A stretch of 4,758 bases of DNA from a virus (taxonomy: Duplodnaviria > Heunggongvirae > Uroviricota > Caudoviricetes). Location: IMG/VR virus record IMGVR_UViG_2802429219_000009. The stretch is one strand, 5' to 3'. The position numbers and the translations under genes are program-made. This document shows, piece by piece, positions 1 through 4,247 of this stretch. The notes under the pieces were generated by a model. It saw only the letters and a program-made list of their open reading frames with translations, did no database searches and was not told the DNA's origin. Every line of letters starts with the position of its first letter. Within the stretch, counting starts at the first letter, position 1.

Positions 1-2160
1 GGTTTTCCGCCTTCACATGCCGGGACCATTACCGTCTATGAAGGTTCCAGACCAGGTACGCTGAATGATTTTCTCGGTGCCATGACGGAAGATGATGTCA
101 TGCCGGAGGCATTGCGTCGTTTTGAGGCAATGGTGGAAGAAGCGGCACGCAACGCTGAAGCCGCCTCTCAGAGCGCAGCAGCGGCAAAGAAATCCGAAAC
201 TGCAGCGGCATCATCGAAGAACGCGGCGAAAACCTCAGAAACGAATGCAGCTAACAGCGCACAGGCGGCAGCGTCCTCGCAGACTGCATCGGCAAACTCC
301 GCGACAGCAGCCAAAAAATCAGAAACCAATGCGAAAAACAGTGAGACAGCCGCAAAGACGAGCGAAACCAACGCAAAGTCCAGCCAGACGGCAGCGAAAA
401 CAAGCGAAACGAATGCCAAAGCCAGTGAAACTGCGGCGAAAAGCAGTCAGGATGCAGCAGCCGAAAGCGAGAGTGCTGCAGCTGGTTCTGCGACTTCAGC
501 AGCTGGATCAGCAACTGCTGCGGCTAACAGCCAGAAAGCCGCGAAGACGAGCGAAACTAACGCAAAGTCCAGCCAGACGGCAGCGAAGACCAGCGAAACG
601 AATGCCAAAGCCAGCGAAACTGCGGCGAAAAACAGTCAGGATGCAGCAGCCCAAAGCGAGAGTGCCGCAGCTGGTTCTGCAACAGCGGCAGCTAATAGCC
701 AAAAAGTTGCAAAAACCAGTGAAACTAACGCAAAGACGAGTGAAACAAAAGCAGCAGCCAGCGAGACAGAAGCAACGTCAGCCGCAACAAGAGCAGAGAA
801 TGCAGCCCGGATTGCAGAAGATGCCGCTGATCCTGCTTCTGTCCCTCCGCTTCCTGATATCTGGCTACCCTTGAATGATTCTCTGGAAGCGATAACAGGG
901 TATGCCCCGGGCTATAAAACAATAACCATCGGCAGTGATGAAATAACAATGCCTGTTAATGGCATATGCCAATTTAGCCGGGCTTCATCTGCAACGTATA
1001 TTGATAAGTCCGGGCATATTACCGTGGCAGGGAATAACGTTCCTCGTTTTGAAAAATATGGTTTGCTGATAGAGAATCAGCGAACAAACATGTTCGTAAA
1101 TAGTTTTAATCCTGATGCCTGGAATAAAAGCGGTGGTATATCTGTAACATCATCAACAGATGAATTTGAGTTTAAATATGGACGTTTCACGGTAGGAAGC
1201 GATATAGCAGGAACGACAACAGGGCGAAATATATGCACAGTTGCTGGTAACAAAGGCATAGATGTGACTGGCGATGATCAGTACAGTAAAGGTCCGTATG
1301 TTACCGCGTCGTTCAGGGTAAGAAGTGATCTCAATGTTCGCGCACGTATCCGTTTTGAACGATATAACTCGGAAGGATACACCTTCCTTTGCGACGCCTA
1401 TTTGTCATTACAGACCCATGAACTACAAATTACTGGTGGCAATGCCCAGCTATTAACAGCAAACTTTGAAATCGATCCAGGTAGTGGATGGATATATTTT
1501 CAGGCAACACTGAAATGTCTGCCAGAATGGGGAATGGTTGGTACGCAGCTGCAAATTGCAGCCGACAGAGCTGTGGGGTCTTTTGCAACAGGTGACTGGA
1601 TAGAAGTAACCACCCCGCAATTCGAGTATGGTGCTTGTGCAACTTCCTTCATCATAACGACAACTGAGCCAGCGACTCGTGCATCAGATTTATGTAAATT
1701 TCCGCTGATGAAAAATATGTATACCATGCCTTTTACGTTCATGGTGGAAGTCCATAAAAACTGGTTTATTTCTCATAATGCGGCACCGCGTGTCATTGAT
1801 TCAGAAAATCACCAGTCCGGAGGCCCATTTATTATGGGGTTTGGTTCTTCTGGAACTATTAGTCAGGACGGTTATTCGTATTGCGATATAGGCGGGGCTA
1901 ACCGACGTGTATATGAGTCATGCGGAGTAAGAGATCTTGTTATGGGATTCAGGGTTAAGGCTGACGGCATGACATGCTCATTTGCAAATAAGCATATAAG
2001 CACAGAAACAAAAACAGTATGGAAATATATTCGTGAAGCTGCTGTGATTCGTATCGGGGGACAAACGACGACAGGATTACGACACCTTAATGGTCATATA
2101 AAAAACCTCCGTTTCTGGAACAGAGCATTGTCAGATACGCAGCTTAAGGAATACGTATAA
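1..2160 (+). CDS. stf: Side tail fiber protein, 5'-partial (frame open from base 1; first in-window ATG at 82). Lambda Stf/StfR-like N-terminal region and Ala-rich repetitive shaft, then a different C-terminal tip ending in a LamG/concanavalin-like motif
   Basis: Frame 1 is open from nt 1 with no stop until TAA at 2158-2160. The translation begins GFPPSHAGTITVYEGSRPGTLNDFLGAMTEDD, which matches the conserved region of lambda Stf / E. coli StfR as I recall it. Residues about 30-250 are low-complexity KTSETNAK / AAxSxxAA repeats typical of Stf shafts. The C-terminus ends ...GLRHLNGHIKNLRFWNRALSDTQLKEYV, resembling the terminal strand of LamG-like jelly-roll domains. The alternate-frame and antisense ORFs over 92..949 are composition artifacts. 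Confidence 0.85.
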   Translation, partial: GFPPSHAGTITVYEGSRPGTLNDFLGAMTEDDVMPEALRRFEAMVEEAARNAEAASQSAAAAKKSETAAASSKNAAKTSETNAANSAQAAASSQTASANSATAAKKSETNAKNSETAAKTSETNAKSSQTAAKTSETNAKASETAAKSSQDAAAESESAAAGSATSAAGSATAAANSQKAAKTSETNAKSSQTAAKTSETNAKASETAAKNSQDAAAQSESAAAGSATAAANSQKVAKTSETNAKTSETKAAASETEATSAATRAENAARIAEDAADPASVPPLPDIWLPLNDSLEAITGYAPGYKTITIGSDEITMPVNGICQFSRASSATYIDKSGHITVAGNNVPRFEKYGLLIENQRTNMFVNSFNPDAWNKSGGISVTSSTDEFEFKYGRFTVGSDIAGTTTGRNICTVAGNKGIDVTGDDQYSKGPYVTASFRVRSDLNVRARIRFERYNSEGYTFLCDAYLSLQTHELQITGGNAQLLTANFEIDPGSGWIYFQATLKCLPEWGMVGTQLQIAADRAVGSFATGDWIEVTTPQFEYGACATSFIITTTEPATRASDLCKFPLMKNMYTMPFTFMVEVHKNWFISHNAAPRVIDSENHQSGGPFIMGFGSSGTISQDGYSYCDIGGANRRVYESCGVRDLVMGFRVKADGMTCSFANKHISTETKTVWKYIREAAVIRIGGQTTTGLRHLNGHIKNLRFWNRALSDTQLKEYV
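352..750 (+). repeat. In-frame tandem coding duplication in the fiber shaft: copy A 352..540 (189 bp), copy B 541..708 (168 bp), then a diverged partial third copy from 709. Copy A also carries an internal 21-bp duplication (481..501 and 502..522)
   Basis: Read directly: gcaaagacgagcgaaaccaacgcaaagtccagccagacggcagcg... at 352 recurs as gcgaagacgagcgaaactaacgcaaagtccagccagacggcagcg... at 541 with only scattered substitutions. The protein-level copies are AKTSETNAKSSQTAAKTSETNAKASETAAKSSQDAAAESESAAAGSAT(SAAGSAT)AAANSQKA and AKTSETNAKSSQTAAKTSETNAKASETAAKNSQDAAAQSESAAAGSATAAANSQKV. Confidence 0.8.
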
Positions 2161-2429
2161 TGCGGGATATAACATTACGATTCGATAACAGAGAACAGTT
2201 TAACGCAATTGTATATGACAGTGGCCTGTTCAGTCTTGAAGAAGAAAACGGGGTTCTTGTTGATGTTATTGGCTGCGTTATCGATTACGAGGAGCCAGAA
2301 AACGAAAGATGTACAGGCATTGATCGCGGTGGTTTTTTCGTAAATATGAGGATCGTTGATAGCAGTAAAAATATATCTTCTTTAATGCCTTTCATTACGA
2401 CAGATCAGCATGTAAGGACATGGGCTTAA
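2160..2429 (+). CDS. Hypothetical small acidic protein (89 aa), translationally coupled to the tail fiber gene; function unknown
   Basis: ATG at 2160 overlaps the stf stop (TAATG). AAGGA at 2146-2150 lies 9 nt upstream of the ATG. The ORF is co-directional and tightly packed with its neighbours, with no hydrophobic segment. I recognise no family by eye. Confidence 0.55.
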   Translation: MRDITLRFDNREQFNAIVYDSGLFSLEEENGVLVDVIGCVIDYEEPENERCTGIDRGGFFVNMRIVDSSKNISSLMPFITTDQHVRTWA

Positions 2430-2441
2430 TGGAGTAAGACA

Positions 2442-3125
2442 ATGGTTACAAAAACAGTAATTCCGGGAGACATCACCACGCTAAAGGGAGATATTTCCTC
2501 AATTAACGGAAAAGTATCAACGCTTCAGACTGAGATGACCAGTGCAAAGCAGGATATCAGCTCCAGATACACAAAAACTGAAGTTGATAATAAGCTGAAA
2601 AACAAAGTGGAAGTGAACGATCTGGAAAGTGGTCGTTATGGCGGAGATTTTTATCCACTGACAGGTCGTGAAGCGTTTTATTTATGGAATTTGGCCACGA
2701 CTACAGCGGCGGCAAACCTTTATCTTAATCCTGACCCCGCAATTTCGTCTGTGCTGCGGTCAACATCGTCTATCCGCTATAAACATTCAGTAGAGACAAT
2801 AGATTCAGAGCACGCTGATCTCATTTTCAGGATGCGCCCTGTGTGGTACAGGTCACAATGCGAAAATGACAGGCGTGACTGGGGATTCTACGGATTGATT
2901 GCCGAGGAAGTAGGAGAAATTGCCCCTCAGTTTGTACACTGGCGACCAGCTAACGAAGATGATGCACCGGAAGCTATTTCCAGCAATGGCCTTGTTGCCG
3001 AAGGTGTAATGTACGAACGTCTGGTTGTTCCACTGATTCACCATATCCAGAAGCTGACTGAAAGAGTTGATGAACTTGAGTCAGAATTAAAGTTGTTATC
3101 CGTTTCCCGAAGCGATATCGGATAA
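2442..3125 (+). CDS. Tail fiber-like protein (227 aa) with an N-terminal coiled-coil-like segment and a C-terminal intramolecular chaperone domain (peptidase S74 / endosialidase-chaperone type)
   Basis: GGAG at 2431-2434 lies 7 nt upstream of the ATG at 2442. Residues about 105-220 (nt about 2754-3101) read SSIRYKHSVETIDSEHADLIFRMRPVWYRS...WGFYGLIAEEVGEIAPQFVHW...GLVAEGVMYERLVVPLIHHIQKLTERVDELESELKLL. This follows the S74 chaperone pattern (S-D-x-R-x-K-x-N-I ... P-V-x-Y ... G-F-I-A-Q-E-V ... Y-x-x-L-I-P-L-L-I-x-A-I-x-E-L ... coiled coil) recalled from endosialidase and T5 L-shaped fiber C-termini. Confidence 0.8.
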   Translation: MVTKTVIPGDITTLKGDISSINGKVSTLQTEMTSAKQDISSRYTKTEVDNKLKNKVEVNDLESGRYGGDFYPLTGREAFYLWNLATTTAAANLYLNPDPAISSVLRSTSSIRYKHSVETIDSEHADLIFRMRPVWYRSQCENDRRDWGFYGLIAEEVGEIAPQFVHWRPANEDDAPEAISSNGLVAEGVMYERLVVPLIHHIQKLTERVDELESELKLLSVSRSDIG

Positions 3126-3135
3126 AGGAGGAGTA

Positions 3136-3429
3136 ATGGATATAACACCTTTCCTTCATGCACTTTGTGCTGTGGCTGCGCAGGTACTGATTGGCCTTTT
3201 TACCGGAAACTGGGTTTACGGTGCGATAGCTGGTTGTACGTTCTTCATTGCGCGTGAACACACCCAGGCAGAATATCGCTGGATTGAAATGTTCGGGCAT
3301 GGCAAGCGGATTAACATGCCGTGGTGGGGCGGTTTTGATCCGCGTGTTTGGGATGTGGCAAGCCTGATAGATTTTGCTGTGCCGGTGGTGGCGTGTCTGC
3401 TGGTCTGGCTGTTGGTTAATCGTGGGTGA
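3136..3429 (+). CDS. Small hydrophobic membrane protein (97 aa, 2-3 predicted transmembrane segments), function unknown; candidate lysogenic-conversion or superinfection-exclusion gene
   Basis: A strong RBS (AAGGAGG at about 3125-3131) lies 5-6 nt upstream of the ATG at 3136. There are hydrophobic stretches at residues about 6-38 (FLHALCAVAAQVLIGLFTGNWVYGAIAGCTFFIA) and about 74-94 (VASLIDFAVPVVACLLVWLLV). It is the last gene of the co-directional block. Confidence 0.7.
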   Translation: MDITPFLHALCAVAAQVLIGLFTGNWVYGAIAGCTFFIAREHTQAEYRWIEMFGHGKRINMPWWGGFDPRVWDVASLIDFAVPVVACLLVWLLVNRG

Positions 3430-3439
3430 AAAAAGGTGA

Positions 3440-3559
3440 GCTGTATATGCAACGGAGGAAGAAACCCCGTTGCTGGAAGCCAGGAAAAAGTATCGGGTGT
3501 TGCTGAACCGTGTTGATACGTCAACTGCACAGGATATTGAATGGCCAGCACTGCCGTAG
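3440..3559 (+). pseudogene. tfa: 3' relic of a tail fiber assembly (tfa) gene: a start-less 39-codon frame encoding the conserved Tfa C-terminus
   Basis: Frame 2 is open only from 3440 (preceded by an in-frame TGA at 3437-3439) to TAG at 3557-3559 and encodes [39 protein letters not shown]. The motif [11 protein letters not shown]-x-A-x-DIEWP is the conserved C-terminal signature of Tfa/U-type tail fiber assembly proteins as I recall them. There is no ATG and nothing upstream to complete a full-length tfa. Confidence 0.6.
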
Positions 3560-3656
3560 GGTAAAACATATAAATTCTATAATTAGATGTATCTTTCCAT
3601 TTACGGCAAGGAAGGGGGCTTGGAAGACGTAAAGCATCTCACACCGAGATTATTTT

Positions 3657-4247
3657 TTATATGTCAGGTGTCTGAAGTTTTGCTTTGGCTCTTAAAATGG
3701 TTTGCCGCGAGGTTTTGAATTCCCGGGCAATGGCACTTATACTTACACCTGACTTAATCCGTTCGAATACCACCTGTTTCTGTTCTTCATTTAACACAGG
3801 TGGTCGACCAAAACGTTTCCCTGCGCCCCGGGCTCTTACTATCCCGGAATGAGTGCGTTCAAGTAAAAGGTCTCGTTCAAATTCAGCGACTGCTGAAATT
3901 ACTTGCATCATCATTTTTCCTGTTGGACTGGTCAGGTCAATGCCCCCCAATGCTAAGCAATGCACTCTGATACCTGTTTCGGTCAGTTGTTCCACTGTTT
4001 TCCTGATATCCATTGCATTACAACCAAGGCGATCCAATTTTGTCACAATCAATTGATCACCACATTTCAGGCGAGCAAGCAACCGGTTAAAACCAGGACG
4101 CTCACTGGTTGCTGCTGAGCCGCTAATGTGTTCTTCGATTATTTGCTGAGGTTTGATTTTAAAACCTGCACTTTCGATTTCCCGGCGTTGATTTTCGGTG
4201 GTCTGATCCAGCGTTGATATCCGACAGTAAGCAAAAATTCGAGACAT
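3657..4247 (-). CDS. pinR: Serine recombinase / DNA invertase of the Pin family (PinR/PinQ-like), 196 aa
   Basis: Intact 196-aa ORF on the - strand. The N-terminus [15 protein letters not shown] carries the catalytic-serine motif of resolvase/invertase-type serine recombinases (Ser at position 11), and the C-terminus has an HTH-like segment ([21 protein letters not shown]). From memory this is essentially the E. coli cryptic-prophage PinR/PinQ sequence; I cannot distinguish pinR from pinQ here. Its placement convergent to the stf/tfa genes matches Rac/Qin/e14 organisation. Confidence 0.92.

What the first reader, a model, noticed from the sequence alone, without database searches (positions are those of the whole stretch)
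2442..3125. Stand-alone 227-aa protein carrying a tail-fiber intramolecular chaperone domain, with an atypical cleavage motif
S74-type chaperone domains normally sit at the C-terminus of large fibers or spikes and are auto-cleaved at a Ser within S-D-x-R-x-K. Here the domain is attached to only about 100 residues of coiled-coil-like sequence, and the position aligned to the cleavage motif reads S-S-I-R-Y-K, with Asp replaced. This may be a miniature fiber, a trans-acting trimerisation chaperone for the neighbouring LamG-tipped fiber, or a non-cleaving variant. All three are uncommon and worth testing.
Basis: partly seen in the sequence, partly recalled or inferred. Interest (0 to 1): 0.7.

Follow-up and report, generated by a model that had tools for sequence, protein, structure and literature searches.

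The report
Short distal side-tail-fibre subunit
This 227-residue prophage protein is most likely the smallest version of the exchangeable outer piece of a two-part phage side tail fibre, and its "odd" self-cleavage motif is the normal signature of a large subfamily, so the finding is real but fairly ordinary.

Summary
Window 2442..3125 (+) is an intact, RBS-preceded 227-aa gene with a Pfam Peptidase_S74 domain at residues 109-165. Its C-terminal half models as an intramolecular-chaperone (IMC) fold, and the motif reads S109-S-I-R-Y-K114.

The interpretation needs correcting. The Asp-to-Ser change is not a local oddity. R-S-T-S-S-x-[R/K]-Y-K is near-invariant across a large subfamily, including bona fide long Stf and P2-type fibres. 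The catalytic Ser and Lys are invariant.

The gene is also not an orphan. It is the third gene of a conserved cassette: a proximal fibre with a LamG/galectin-like end, a ~90-aa protein, then an S74 protein. This cassette occurs in lambdoid, T1-like, Seuratvirus and T5-like phages. Third-slot proteins range from 221 to 574 aa. All share the N-terminal peptide MVTKTVIPxDIxxLK and all carry an S74 domain. For IrisVonRoten Gp24, this slot's protein has been modelled as a distal fibre attached to the proximal fibre.

dN/dS is 0.16-0.23, and 740 of 5,426 complete E. coli genomes carry the allele.

Best reading: a minimal, self-cleaving distal fibre subunit. A trans-chaperone role is not excluded. 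Cleavage and virion incorporation remain untested.

The parts
1..2160 (+). stf: proximal side tail fibre. The reading frame is open from window base 1 and the gene starts upstream of the window. It has Ala/Ser/Thr-rich repeats followed by a C-terminal ~440-aa LamG/galectin-like receptor-type end.
   Evidence: Translation is open from base 1. Pfam phage_tail_N matches, phrog_1419 matches at E 0, and NCBIfam GTA_spike_fiber matches residues 329-534. It is 45% identical to IrisVonRoten Gp22 and 38% identical to the KarlJaspers lateral fibre. The full 785-aa Stf is present in phage PhiR55_1.
2160..2429 (+). 89-aa protein, the second gene of the cassette. Its start overlaps the stf stop codon (TAATG). 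Its function is unknown; it may be an adaptor or assembly factor.
   Evidence: phrog_1361 matches at E 9.6e-31. Homologues of 92-93 aa sit in the same position in T1-like, Seuratvirus, T5-like and lambdoid phages. The single-sequence AF2 model is unreliable, with pLDDT 49.8.
2431..2434 (+). GGAG ribosome-binding site, 7 nt upstream of the ATG of the 227-aa gene.
   Evidence: Read directly from the sequence.
2442..3125 (+). The 227-aa gene: a minimal distal fibre subunit with a C-terminal intramolecular chaperone.
   Evidence: RefSeq names it 'tail fiber domain-containing protein', WP_001545532.1.
2442..2486 (+). Residues 1-15, MVTKTVIPGDITTLK: a conserved N-terminal peptide and putative docking segment to the proximal fibre or the ~90-aa protein.
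   Evidence: The same peptide heads third-slot proteins of 221-574 aa in four phage groups, for example IrisVonRoten Gp24 (MVTKTVIPTDITKLK). Nucleotide identity with PhiR47_1 and PhiR11_1 ends at base 2485, just after this peptide.
2460..2609 (+). Residues ~7-56: coiled-coil stalk, inferred trimeric (heptad a/d pattern).
   Evidence: Hydrophobic positions are 7, 11, 14, 18, 21, 25, 28, 32 and 39. AF2 predicts helices 12-40 and 45-53. Residues 5-45 weakly match the gp26 tail-needle coiled coil. Homologues carry 7-residue indels here and dN/dS is ~0.5.
2622..2765 (+). Residues 61-108: short tip segment that would be the C-terminal end of the mature fibre. It includes the subfamily-conserved T-T-x-x-x-A-N and R106-S107-T108.
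   Evidence: T86, T87 and A91 are conserved in at least 90% of sequences and R106, S107 and T108 are invariant. dN/dS is 0-0.21. The segment is homologous to the distal end of long Stf fibres such as P0111. AF2 monomer pLDDT is low here, 44-61.
2766..2783 (+). Cleavage motif S109-S110-I111-R112-Y113-K114. The predicted scissile bond is T108|S109, and the predicted catalytic dyad is S109 and K114.
   Evidence: These residues align to Pfam S74 profile positions 1-6. S109 and K114 are invariant and S110 is conserved in at least 90% of sequences. The dyad and the Thr|Ser bond have precedents in T5 pb1 (T1263|S1264, K1269; PMC4690869) and in endoNF and MyRF (PMC8326128).
2766..3122 (+). Residues 109-227: intramolecular chaperone (Peptidase_S74) domain, ending in a long C-terminal helix (residues 191-226, nt 3012-3119).
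   Evidence: Pfam match. AF2 pLDDT is 87-97 with helix 191-226. Foldseek hits 7dc3, 3gud and 3gw6. dN/dS is 0.09-0.17.
3136..3429 (+). 97-aa hydrophobic protein with a strong AGGAGG RBS. It is the downstream neighbour in lambdoid versions of the cassette only.
   Evidence: phrog_1443 matches at E 3.4e-58. Hydropathy peaks lie at residues ~1-27 and ~70-97. It is present in PhiR55_1, Tritos, PhiR49_1 and PhiR49_2 and absent from the virulent phages.
3449..3559 (+). Remnant of a tail fibre assembly (tfa) gene, C-terminal fragment. Context only.
   Evidence: The RefSeq annotation of the 99.9%-identical ECAMP047 locus marks it as such.
3657..4247 (-). pinQ-type serine DNA invertase. Context only; no crossover-type inverted repeats remain in the window.
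   Evidence: Pfam Resolvase plus HTH_7, and phrog_125. Annotated pinQ. The inverted-repeat scan found nothing convincing.

Best explanation
The 227-aa protein is the distal subunit of a two-part side tail fibre, in its smallest known form.

Proposed mechanism:
1. Three chains are nucleated by the C-terminal IMC domain (residues 109-227; its last helix forms a three-helix bundle).
2. This drives folding of the short tip (61-108) and zips up the N-terminal coiled coil, inferred to be trimeric (~7-56).
3. Once the trimer is correct, each chain cuts itself at T108|S109 using the S109-K114 dyad. The IMC is released.
4. The remaining ~108-residue-per-chain stub docks through its conserved N-terminal peptide (MVTKTVIPGDITTLK) onto the end of the LamG/galectin-tipped Stf, possibly with the 89-aa protein as adaptor.

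What is shown: domain identity, fold, dyad conservation, synteny, the shared N-terminal peptide, and purifying selection. What is inferred: trimerisation, cleavage, docking, presence in virions, and any receptor binding.
For: S74 domain and IMC fold. S109 and K114 are invariant, and the RSTSSx[RK]YK signature is also present in long Stf and P2-type fibres.

The same three-gene cassette occurs in PhiR55_1, PhiR49_1 and IdasGreatGrand (lambdoid), KarlJaspers and PeterMerian (Drexlerviridae), KurtStettler (Seuratvirus) and IrisVonRoten (T5-like). All three proteins are homologous across these phages.

Third-slot alleles of 221, 227, 231, 234, 294, 346, 510 and 574 aa all begin with the same ~15-aa peptide and all contain S74. 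The recombination junction with PhiR47_1 lies right after that peptide, at base 2485.

The IrisVonRoten slot-3 protein, Gp24, is published as a distal fibre modelled as attached to the proximal fibre Gp22 (PMC11990801, Fig 12B). There is precedent for a secondary fibre docking by a ~45-aa N-terminal peptide, in DT57C LtfB and phiEco32 gp15 (PMC4728585).

dN/dS is 0.16-0.23, and indels in the stalk preserve the heptad register. The gene has its own RBS. The allele is in 740 of 5,426 complete E. coli genomes.
Against: There is no experimental evidence for cleavage, trimerisation, docking or virion incorporation of this protein or any close homologue. The Gp24-Gp22 attachment is an AlphaFold-Multimer prediction, not a solved structure. 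The mature part would be only ~108 residues with no recognisable receptor-binding domain, and its AF2 (monomer) confidence is low. BASEL authors label the T1-like homologues 'putative lateral tail fiber chaperone'. I found no characterised IMC of the R-S-T-S-S type, so cleavage in this subfamily rests on conservation alone. PhiR49_2 shows that the third gene is dispensable for a plaque-forming phage.
Confidence: 0.6

Rival explanations
1. It is a trans-acting assembly factor or transient cap. The protein docks via its N-terminal peptide on nascent Stf chains (or on the 89-aa protein) and uses its own IMC-driven trimerisation to bring three Stf C-termini together or to stabilise them. It is then released or degraded and is not a functional receptor-binding part of the virion.
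For: The mature portion is minimal and has no recognisable receptor-binding domain. Among the phage loci examined, every copy of this gene followed a LamG-tipped fibre and the ~90-aa gene. GenBank carries the label 'putative lateral tail fiber chaperone' for Bas05, Bas06 and Bas22. In DT57C, LtfA is unstable without its partner LtfB (PMC4728585). Transient chaperone caps on fibres have been described in Alteromonas phages (cited in PMC11990801).
Against: Known S74 domains act in cis on the segment immediately N-terminal to them (PMC4690869, PMC3742443). The same slot carries proteins that clearly bear receptor-binding domains, such as the T-shaped IrisVonRoten Gp24 (PMC11990801). The invariant Ser-Lys dyad and the strongly constrained 61-108 tip suggest that a mature cleaved product matters. 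PhiR49_2 keeps the Stf and the ~90-aa gene without this gene. That last point is weak, because lambda-type side fibres are themselves dispensable for plaque formation.
Confidence: 0.17
2. It is a non-cleaving variant. The Asp-to-Ser change, or other changes, disables autoproteolysis. The IMC then stays attached as a permanent globular distal knob of a short fibre.
For: Asp at +1 is strictly conserved in MYRF-family ICA domains (PMC3742443) and is present in the canonical slot-3 alleles. No R-S-T-S-S-type IMC has been tested experimentally, as far as I could find. In T5, an uncleaved IMC masks receptor binding (PMC4690869), so retention would have functional consequences.
Against: S109 and K114 are invariant across 53 diverse homologues, and Ser+1, Tyr+4 and R-S-T are near-invariant across ~230. 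That pattern is expected for an active site, not a decayed one. Only the Ser and the Lys are indispensable in mutagenesis; other nearby mutants still cleave partially (PMC8326128). Another fibre in the PDB, the DT57C-type LtfA (8hqz_d), also lacks Asp, reading T-S-G-I-E-Y-K. The Thr-Ser scissile pair matches T5 pb1 (PMC4690869).
Confidence: 0.12
3. It is a decaying remnant: the leftover C-terminus of an older S74-ended Stf, stranded when a LamG-tip cassette recombined in, and no longer functional.
For: Residues ~40-217 are 51-61% identical to the C-terminal ends of long Stf proteins. The locus is visibly mosaic, with a tfa remnant and an orphan invertase downstream.
Against: The gene has its own RBS and ATG. 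dN/dS is 0.16-0.23. The 221-234-aa form is conserved at ~60% identity in virulent T1-like phages with compact genomes. The N-terminal peptide is shared with other slot-3 alleles and is not derived from an Stf interior.
Confidence: 0.03

Closest known systems
IrisVonRoten (Bas32, T5-like) Gp22-Gp23-Gp24 lateral tail fibre module (PMC11990801)
   Same: The gene order is the same: a proximal fibre with a LamG/galectin-like end, a ~90-aa protein, then an S74 protein. Stf is 45% identical to Gp22. The 89-aa protein is 33% identical to Gp23. The N-terminal peptides are nearly identical (MVTKTVIPGDITTLK versus MVTKTVIPTDITKLK). Both have a C-terminal IMC.
   Different: Gp24 is 574 aa with two predicted receptor-binding domains (T-shaped) and a canonical S-D-S-R-L-K motif. 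The window protein is 227 aa, has only a coiled coil plus a ~48-residue tip before the IMC, and reads S-S-I-R-Y-K.
Drexlerviridae and Seuratvirus 'putative lateral tail fiber chaperone' / 'chaperone of endosialidase' genes (KarlJaspers Bas06, PeterMerian Bas05, SECphi27, JK16, KurtStettler Bas22)
   Same: The T1-like proteins are direct homologues over the full length (221-231 aa, 58-62% identity). They have the same cassette, the same S-S-x-R-Y-K motif and the same N-terminal peptide.
   Different: They sit in virulent phages rather than a lambdoid prophage, and lack the downstream 97-aa membrane protein. Their names are inferred from the Pfam domain title, not from experiments. The KurtStettler protein is 510 aa with a canonical S-D motif.
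S74 intramolecular chaperone domains of K1F endosialidase (3gw6), GA-1 gp12 (3gud), T5 pb1 (PMC4690869) and the MyRF ICA domain (7dc3)
   Same: The fold matches. The Ser-x4-Lys dyad spacing is the same. Thr precedes the scissile Ser, as in T5. There is a C-terminal trimerising helix.
   Different: Those domains end fibres or spikes of roughly 650 to 1,400 residues (or a transcription factor) and carry Asp after the Ser. Here the preceding part is ~108 residues and the position is Ser, a signature shared with a large subfamily.
DT57C LtfA/LtfB branched lateral fibres, and phiEco32 gp14/gp15 (PMC4728585, PMC10713586)
   Same: The fibre is built from two proteins. The second attaches to the first through a short conserved N-terminal segment. 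Both proteins end in autocleavable S74 domains.
   Different: The proteins and attachment sites are unrelated in sequence: the LtfB N-terminus is phiEco32-gp15-like. There is no ~90-aa middle gene. LtfB is a demonstrated host-range determinant, whereas nothing has been demonstrated for the window protein.
Lambda/Mu/P2-type Tfa tail fibre assembly chaperones (Caudo_TAP)
   Same: The gene lies immediately downstream of stf, and the idea of a fibre-assembly helper is similar.
   Different: Pfam gives no Tfa-family (Caudo_TAP) hit among matches at E <= 0.1, and PHROGs and NCBIfam list no tail-fibre-assembly family for this protein at E <= 0.01. A separate degraded tfa fragment lies at 3449-3559.

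Membership tests
Peptidase_S74 / intramolecular chaperone auto-processing (IMC/ICA) domain | Sequence match to PF13884 above the curated threshold | tested here: met
   Residues 109-165 match profile positions 1-57 of 58, with 26.7 bits against a cut-off of 22 and E 7.1e-6.
Peptidase_S74 / intramolecular chaperone auto-processing (IMC/ICA) domain | Catalytic Ser and Lys five residues apart at the start of the domain | tested here: met
   S109 and K114 align to profile positions 1 and 6. Both are invariant in 53 homologues.
Peptidase_S74 / intramolecular chaperone auto-processing (IMC/ICA) domain | Asp immediately after the scissile Ser (canonical S-D-x-R-x-K) | tested here: not met
   The position is Ser110. 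This is the subfamily norm, seen in 225 of 232 homologues. In the mutagenesis I read (PMC8326128, PMC3742443), only the Ser and Lys were shown to be indispensable; the Asp does not appear among the mutants listed.
Peptidase_S74 / intramolecular chaperone auto-processing (IMC/ICA) domain | IMC three-dimensional fold with a C-terminal trimerising helix | tested here: met
   AF2 pLDDT is 87-97 over residues 111-227 with helix 191-226. Foldseek hits 7dc3 at E 1.6e-5 (prob 1.0), then 3gud and 3gw6. The model is a monomer only, so the trimer is inferred.
Peptidase_S74 / intramolecular chaperone auto-processing (IMC/ICA) domain | Autoproteolytic release after trimer folding | not testable with these tools
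   This needs expression of wild type against S109A and K114A mutants, read out by SDS-PAGE or mass spectrometry.
Distal subunit of the three-gene lateral/side tail fibre cassette (IrisVonRoten Gp24 slot) | Synteny: proximal fibre with LamG/galectin-like end, then a ~90-aa gene, then this gene | tested here: met
   The order is found in the window and in seven phages from four groups. Homology of genes 1 and 2 is shown.
Distal subunit of the three-gene lateral/side tail fibre cassette (IrisVonRoten Gp24 slot) | Conserved N-terminal peptide M-[VA]-T-x-T-x-I-P-x-D-I-x-x-L-K | tested here: met
   The window has MVTKTVIPGDITTLK. The peptide is shared by all nine slot-3 proteins compared.
Distal subunit of the three-gene lateral/side tail fibre cassette (IrisVonRoten Gp24 slot) | C-terminal S74 domain | tested here: met
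   All slot-3 alleles tested carry PF13884.
Distal subunit of the three-gene lateral/side tail fibre cassette (IrisVonRoten Gp24 slot) | A sizeable receptor-binding domain between the N-terminal segment and the IMC | tested here: not met
   Only ~48 residues (61-108) lie between the coiled coil and the scissile Ser. Other alleles have ~200-460 residues before it.
Distal subunit of the three-gene lateral/side tail fibre cassette (IrisVonRoten Gp24 slot) | Physical attachment to the proximal fibre and presence in virions | not testable with these tools
   No multimer prediction tool was available. The published support for Gp24 is an AlphaFold-Multimer model (PMC11990801).
Tfa-type tail fibre assembly chaperone | Sequence similarity to tail fibre assembly protein families | tested here: not met
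   Neither the 227-aa nor the 89-aa protein hits any Tfa family in Pfam, PHROGs or NCBIfam.

The most novel reading that the evidence does not exclude
The minimal S74 protein could be a dedicated trans-acting trimerisation device. It would have shed its receptor-binding domain and kept only the docking peptide, a coiled coil and the self-cleaving IMC, which it uses to clamp and fold the three C-terminal ends of the LamG-tipped Stf (with the 89-aa protein). That would be the first case of an 'intramolecular' chaperone working intermolecularly.
Probability: 0.12. Interest if true: 0.65.

Novelty: new member of a known kind. Interest (0 to 1): 0.3.

Why it matters
The practical value is in annotation and engineering. 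The analysis shows that 'chaperone of endosialidase', 'putative lateral tail fiber chaperone' and 'tail fiber domain-containing protein' are labels for one exchangeable slot: the distal subunit of a three-gene fibre cassette. A ~15-residue N-terminal peptide is conserved from lambdoid prophages to T1-, T5- and Seuratvirus-like phages. That peptide is a candidate plug-and-play handle for swapping receptor-binding modules.

The analysis also defines a large IMC subfamily with an R-S-T-S-S-x-[R/K]-Y-K site in which the canonical Asp is replaced. Testing cleavage there would show how much of the S-D-x-R-x-K motif is actually required. Nothing here overturns current understanding of phage fibres.

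Tried and rejected
1. Invertible-segment idea. Because a Pin-type invertase lies next door, I looked for crossover-type inverted repeats that could flip the fibre genes. None were convincing. All cassette genes are on one strand and only a tfa remnant survives, so the invertase looks orphaned.

2. Pseudogene or remnant idea. Rejected on dN/dS, the RBS and conservation in virulent phages.

3. Structure of the 89-aa partner. The homologue search found only four fragments and single-sequence AF2 gave pLDDT 49.8. This is unusable, so I ran no fold search.

4. Deep-mutational-scan data on K1F endosialidase for tolerance at Asp912. The paper does not report that position in its text.

5. Literature searches for an experimental study of the stand-alone T1-like S74 protein, for virion proteomics of it, and for the PhiR phage paper. 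Nothing specific was found.

7. The PDB sequence search gave only one IMC hit (8hqz_d) plus coiled-coil noise.
Full report
**Where the window comes from**

The window is 99.9% identical to a lambdoid prophage at the ydfK/ydfJ (Qin-type) site of E. coli ECAMP047. The gene order there is J, lom, stf, an 89-aa gene, the 227-aa gene, a 97-aa gene, a tfa fragment, then pinQ on the opposite strand. In the window, stf is open from base 1. The 89-aa gene starts on the stf stop codon (TAATG). The 227-aa gene has a GGAG 7 nt before its ATG at 2442, and the 97-aa gene has an AGGAGG. The same stf, 89-aa, 227-aa and 97-aa block is present in PhiR55_1, a sequenced phage isolate with E. coli C listed as host. 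There the 227-aa protein is 96.5% identical.

**Checking the observation**

- Pfam Peptidase_S74 matches residues 109-165 (profile positions 1-57 of 58) at 26.7 bits, above the 22-bit gathering threshold.
- An AF2 model built on 53 homologues has pLDDT 87-97 over roughly residues 111-227, ending in a long helix at 191-226.
- Foldseek against the PDB ranks the MyRF ICA domain first (7dc3, E 1.6e-5, probability 1.0), followed by the GA-1 (3gud) and K1F endosialidase (3gw6) intramolecular chaperones.
- Profile positions 1-6 are S109-S-I-R-Y-K114.
- The N-terminal part has a clean 3-4 hydrophobic repeat at positions 7, 11, 14, 18, 21, 25, 28, 32 and 39. It weakly matches the coiled coil of a P22-type tail needle, which I take as the trimeric type. 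Homologues carry 7-residue indels there.

**Is the motif atypical?**

It is not atypical for this lineage. All homologues from the word-indexed search that retain the region carry R-S-T-S-S-x-[R/K]-Y-K, including marine and other metagenomic proteins. In the 53-sequence alignment, R106, S107, T108, S109 and K114 are invariant, and S110 and Y113 are conserved in at least 90% of sequences.

The exhaustive HMMER search found 3,542 representative clusters at E <= 1e-3. Pooled with the first search, 225 of 232 sequences with a recognisable site have Ser after the scissile Ser, and 222 have R-S-T before it. These include full-length fibres:
- P0111 (735 aa) and P0112 (958 aa), which have the lambdoid Stf N-terminal domain.
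- P0119 (1,009 aa), which has the P2-type tail-collar N-terminus.
- Others with Gp34_trimer or Phage_fiber_2 repeats.

Published mutagenesis shows that only the Ser and the Lys are indispensable. In MyRF, S587A and K592A abolish cleavage while most neighbouring mutants still cleave partially (PMC8326128, PMC3742443). In T5 pb1 the cut is between Thr1263 and Ser1264, with Lys1269 as the base (PMC4690869). The window protein has the same T|S...K geometry. The one IMC-bearing fibre recovered by the PDB sequence search, a DT57C-type LtfA, also lacks the Asp and reads T-S-G-I-E-Y-K. The conservation pattern is what one expects of a live active site. I found no experiment on an R-S-T-S-S-type domain, so cleavage remains an inference.

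**Is it a stand-alone oddity?**

No. tblastn against phage genomes finds full-length homologues of 58-62% identity in about 45 T1-like (Drexlerviridae) phages. These are variously labelled 'chaperone of endosialidase', 'peptidase S74 domain-containing protein' or, in the BASEL collection, 'putative lateral tail fiber chaperone'.

In KarlJaspers and PeterMerian the gene follows a 651-655-aa lateral tail fibre and a 92-aa gene. All three proteins are homologous to the window's three: the fibre end at 38%, the small protein at 32%, and the S74 protein at 61%.

The 89-aa protein also has homologues in T5-like phages. In IrisVonRoten the order is Gp22 (796-aa lateral fibre, 45% identical to the window Stf over its aligned length), Gp23 (92 aa), and Gp24 (574 aa). 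Gp24 begins MVTKTVIPTDITKLK, against MVTKTVIPGDITTLK in the window protein, and ends in an S74 domain. KurtStettler (Seuratvirus) has the same cassette with a 510-aa third protein.

Within lambdoid phages the third slot holds several alleles:
- 227-234-aa alleles like this one (PhiR55_1, PhiR49_1, IdasGreatGrand).
- A 346-aa 'tail fiber protein' (Tritos).
- A truncated 294-aa version (PhiR47_1).

The last two share only the first ~25 residues with the window protein and end in canonical S-D-R-D-L-K S74 domains. Nucleotide identity between the window and PhiR47_1 or PhiR11_1 runs through stf and the 89-aa gene and stops at base 2485, which is codon 15 of the 227-aa gene. A conserved N-terminal peptide followed by an exchangeable body is the usual signature of a protein that plugs into a conserved partner.

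**What the literature says about this slot**

The second BASEL paper models IrisVonRoten Gp24 as a T-shaped distal fibre with two receptor-binding domains and a C-terminal IMC. In that model it attaches to the proximal fibre Gp22, whose C-terminal galectin-like domain protrudes (PMC11990801, Fig 12B and text; AlphaFold-Multimer, not experimental).

In T5-like DT57C, a second fibre protein (LtfB) attaches via LtfA through a conserved ~45-residue N-terminal segment. Both proteins end in autocleavable S74 domains, and LtfA is unstable without LtfB (PMC4728585, PMC10713586).

I found no paper that studies the short T1-like or lambdoid protein itself. The 'chaperone' labels appear to derive from the Pfam domain title.

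**Is it functional?**

Among four lambdoid alleles, dN/dS is 0.16-0.23 overall. By region it is:
- 0-0.21 for residues 61-108;
- 0.09-0.17 for the IMC;
- about 0.5 for the coiled coil.

The gene body is present in 740 of 5,426 complete E. coli genomes, almost always annotated 'tail fiber domain-containing protein'. This rules out a decaying remnant, even though residues ~40-217 are clearly related (51-61% identity) to the distal ends of long Stf proteins.

**Most likely mechanism**

By homology with characterised IMCs, the steps would be:
1. The C-terminal domain trimerises first.
2. It templates the short tip (61-108) and lets the N-terminal stalk zip into a coiled coil, inferred to be trimeric.
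3. It then removes itself by S109/K114-catalysed cleavage at T108|S109.
4. The ~108-residue-per-chain product docks by its N-terminal peptide on the end of the LamG/galectin-tipped Stf, perhaps through the ~90-aa protein.

Because the tip is so small and so conserved (about 70% identical between lambdoid and T1-like phages), it may bind a conserved surface structure, or it may simply complete or stabilise the proximal fibre. I cannot tell which. I put 0.6 on the 'minimal self-cleaving distal subunit' reading.

**Rivals**

- A trans-acting assembly factor or transient cap is the main alternative (0.17). It fits the minimal architecture and the LtfA/LtfB instability precedent. It is disfavoured for four reasons. 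S74 domains are known to act in cis. The slot otherwise holds proteins with receptor-binding domains. The cleavage dyad and the mature tip are both under strong constraint. PhiR49_2 carries the LamG-tipped Stf (47% identical), the ~90-aa gene and the 97-aa gene but no third gene. That last argument is weak, since side fibres are dispensable for plaque formation in lambda-type phages (established knowledge).
- A permanently uncleaved knob is possible (0.12) but goes against the conservation pattern.
- A remnant is essentially excluded (0.03).

**Verdict**

The feature is real and correctly located. It is a common, already annotated, experimentally uncharacterised member of a known kind of protein: an IMC-ended phage fibre subunit, sitting in a conserved cassette. 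The 'atypical' motif is a subfamily signature. Interest is modest at 0.3. What remains worth testing is whether the R-S-T-S-S site cleaves, whether the stub is in virions, and whether the conserved N-terminal peptide is a portable docking handle.

Noticed in passing
window 3136-3429 (+): A 97-aa hydrophobic protein (phrog_1443; hydropathy peaks at residues ~1-27 and ~70-97) with a strong RBS follows the fibre cassette in every lambdoid version seen, whatever the third-slot allele and even when that gene is absent (PhiR49_2). It is missing from the virulent T1-, T5- and Seuratvirus-like versions. It may be a lysogeny-associated membrane 'moron'. Its function is unknown.
   Followed up: partly
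window 3449-3559 (+) and 3657-4247 (-): A C-terminal fragment of a tail fibre assembly gene lies next to an intact PinQ-type serine invertase, but no crossover-type inverted repeats remain in the window. This looks like the stump of a former invertible fibre-tip segment that the LamG-tip cassette displaced, leaving an orphan invertase.
   Followed up: partly
L011 (PhiR49_2, PV340570) 1306-3947: This isolated lambdoid phage has the LamG-tipped Stf, the ~92-aa gene and the 97-aa gene in direct succession, with no S74 third gene. The distal subunit is therefore optional at the genome level.
   Followed up: partly
L010 (KurtStettler, MZ501091) 4001-5533: The 510-aa third-slot protein has its S74 domain starting at residue 208. 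That leaves ~303 residues after the predicted scissile Ser, compared with ~111-120 in the other alleles. This is an unusually long post-cleavage part and may carry an extra domain.
   Followed up: no
L005 (PhiR47_1, PV340566) 5942-6826: The 294-aa third-slot allele stops only 68 residues after the start of its S74 domain, whereas the otherwise similar 346-aa Tritos allele has 120. Its chaperone domain is probably truncated and possibly inactive.
   Followed up: no
window 1-2160 (+), compared with L001 5803-8160: The stf frame is open throughout the window, and the intact gene is 785 aa in PhiR55_1. RefSeq nevertheless splits the 99.9%-identical ECAMP047 copy into an N-terminal pseudogene fragment and a separate 'phage head spike fiber domain-containing protein'. 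This may be an annotation artefact of the long Ala/Ser/Thr-rich AAKTSETNAKSS-type repeats (window ~100-800).
   Followed up: partly
window 2160-2429 (+): The ~90-aa middle gene is conserved at 30-37% identity across lambdoid, T1-like, Seuratvirus and T5-like cassettes. It matches no Pfam or NCBIfam family and has no usable structure model (single-sequence AF2 pLDDT 49.8, predicted all-beta). It is labelled 'tail fiber protein' in IrisVonRoten. Its role as adaptor or chaperone is open.
   Followed up: partly
PMC11990801, text versus Fig 12 legend: The paper names the proximal fibre of IrisVonRoten as Gp22 in the figure legend but as Gp23 in the running text. By the GenBank record, Gp22 is the 796-aa fibre and Gp23 is the 92-aa protein. 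It is therefore unclear whether the small protein was part of the published complex model.
   Followed up: no
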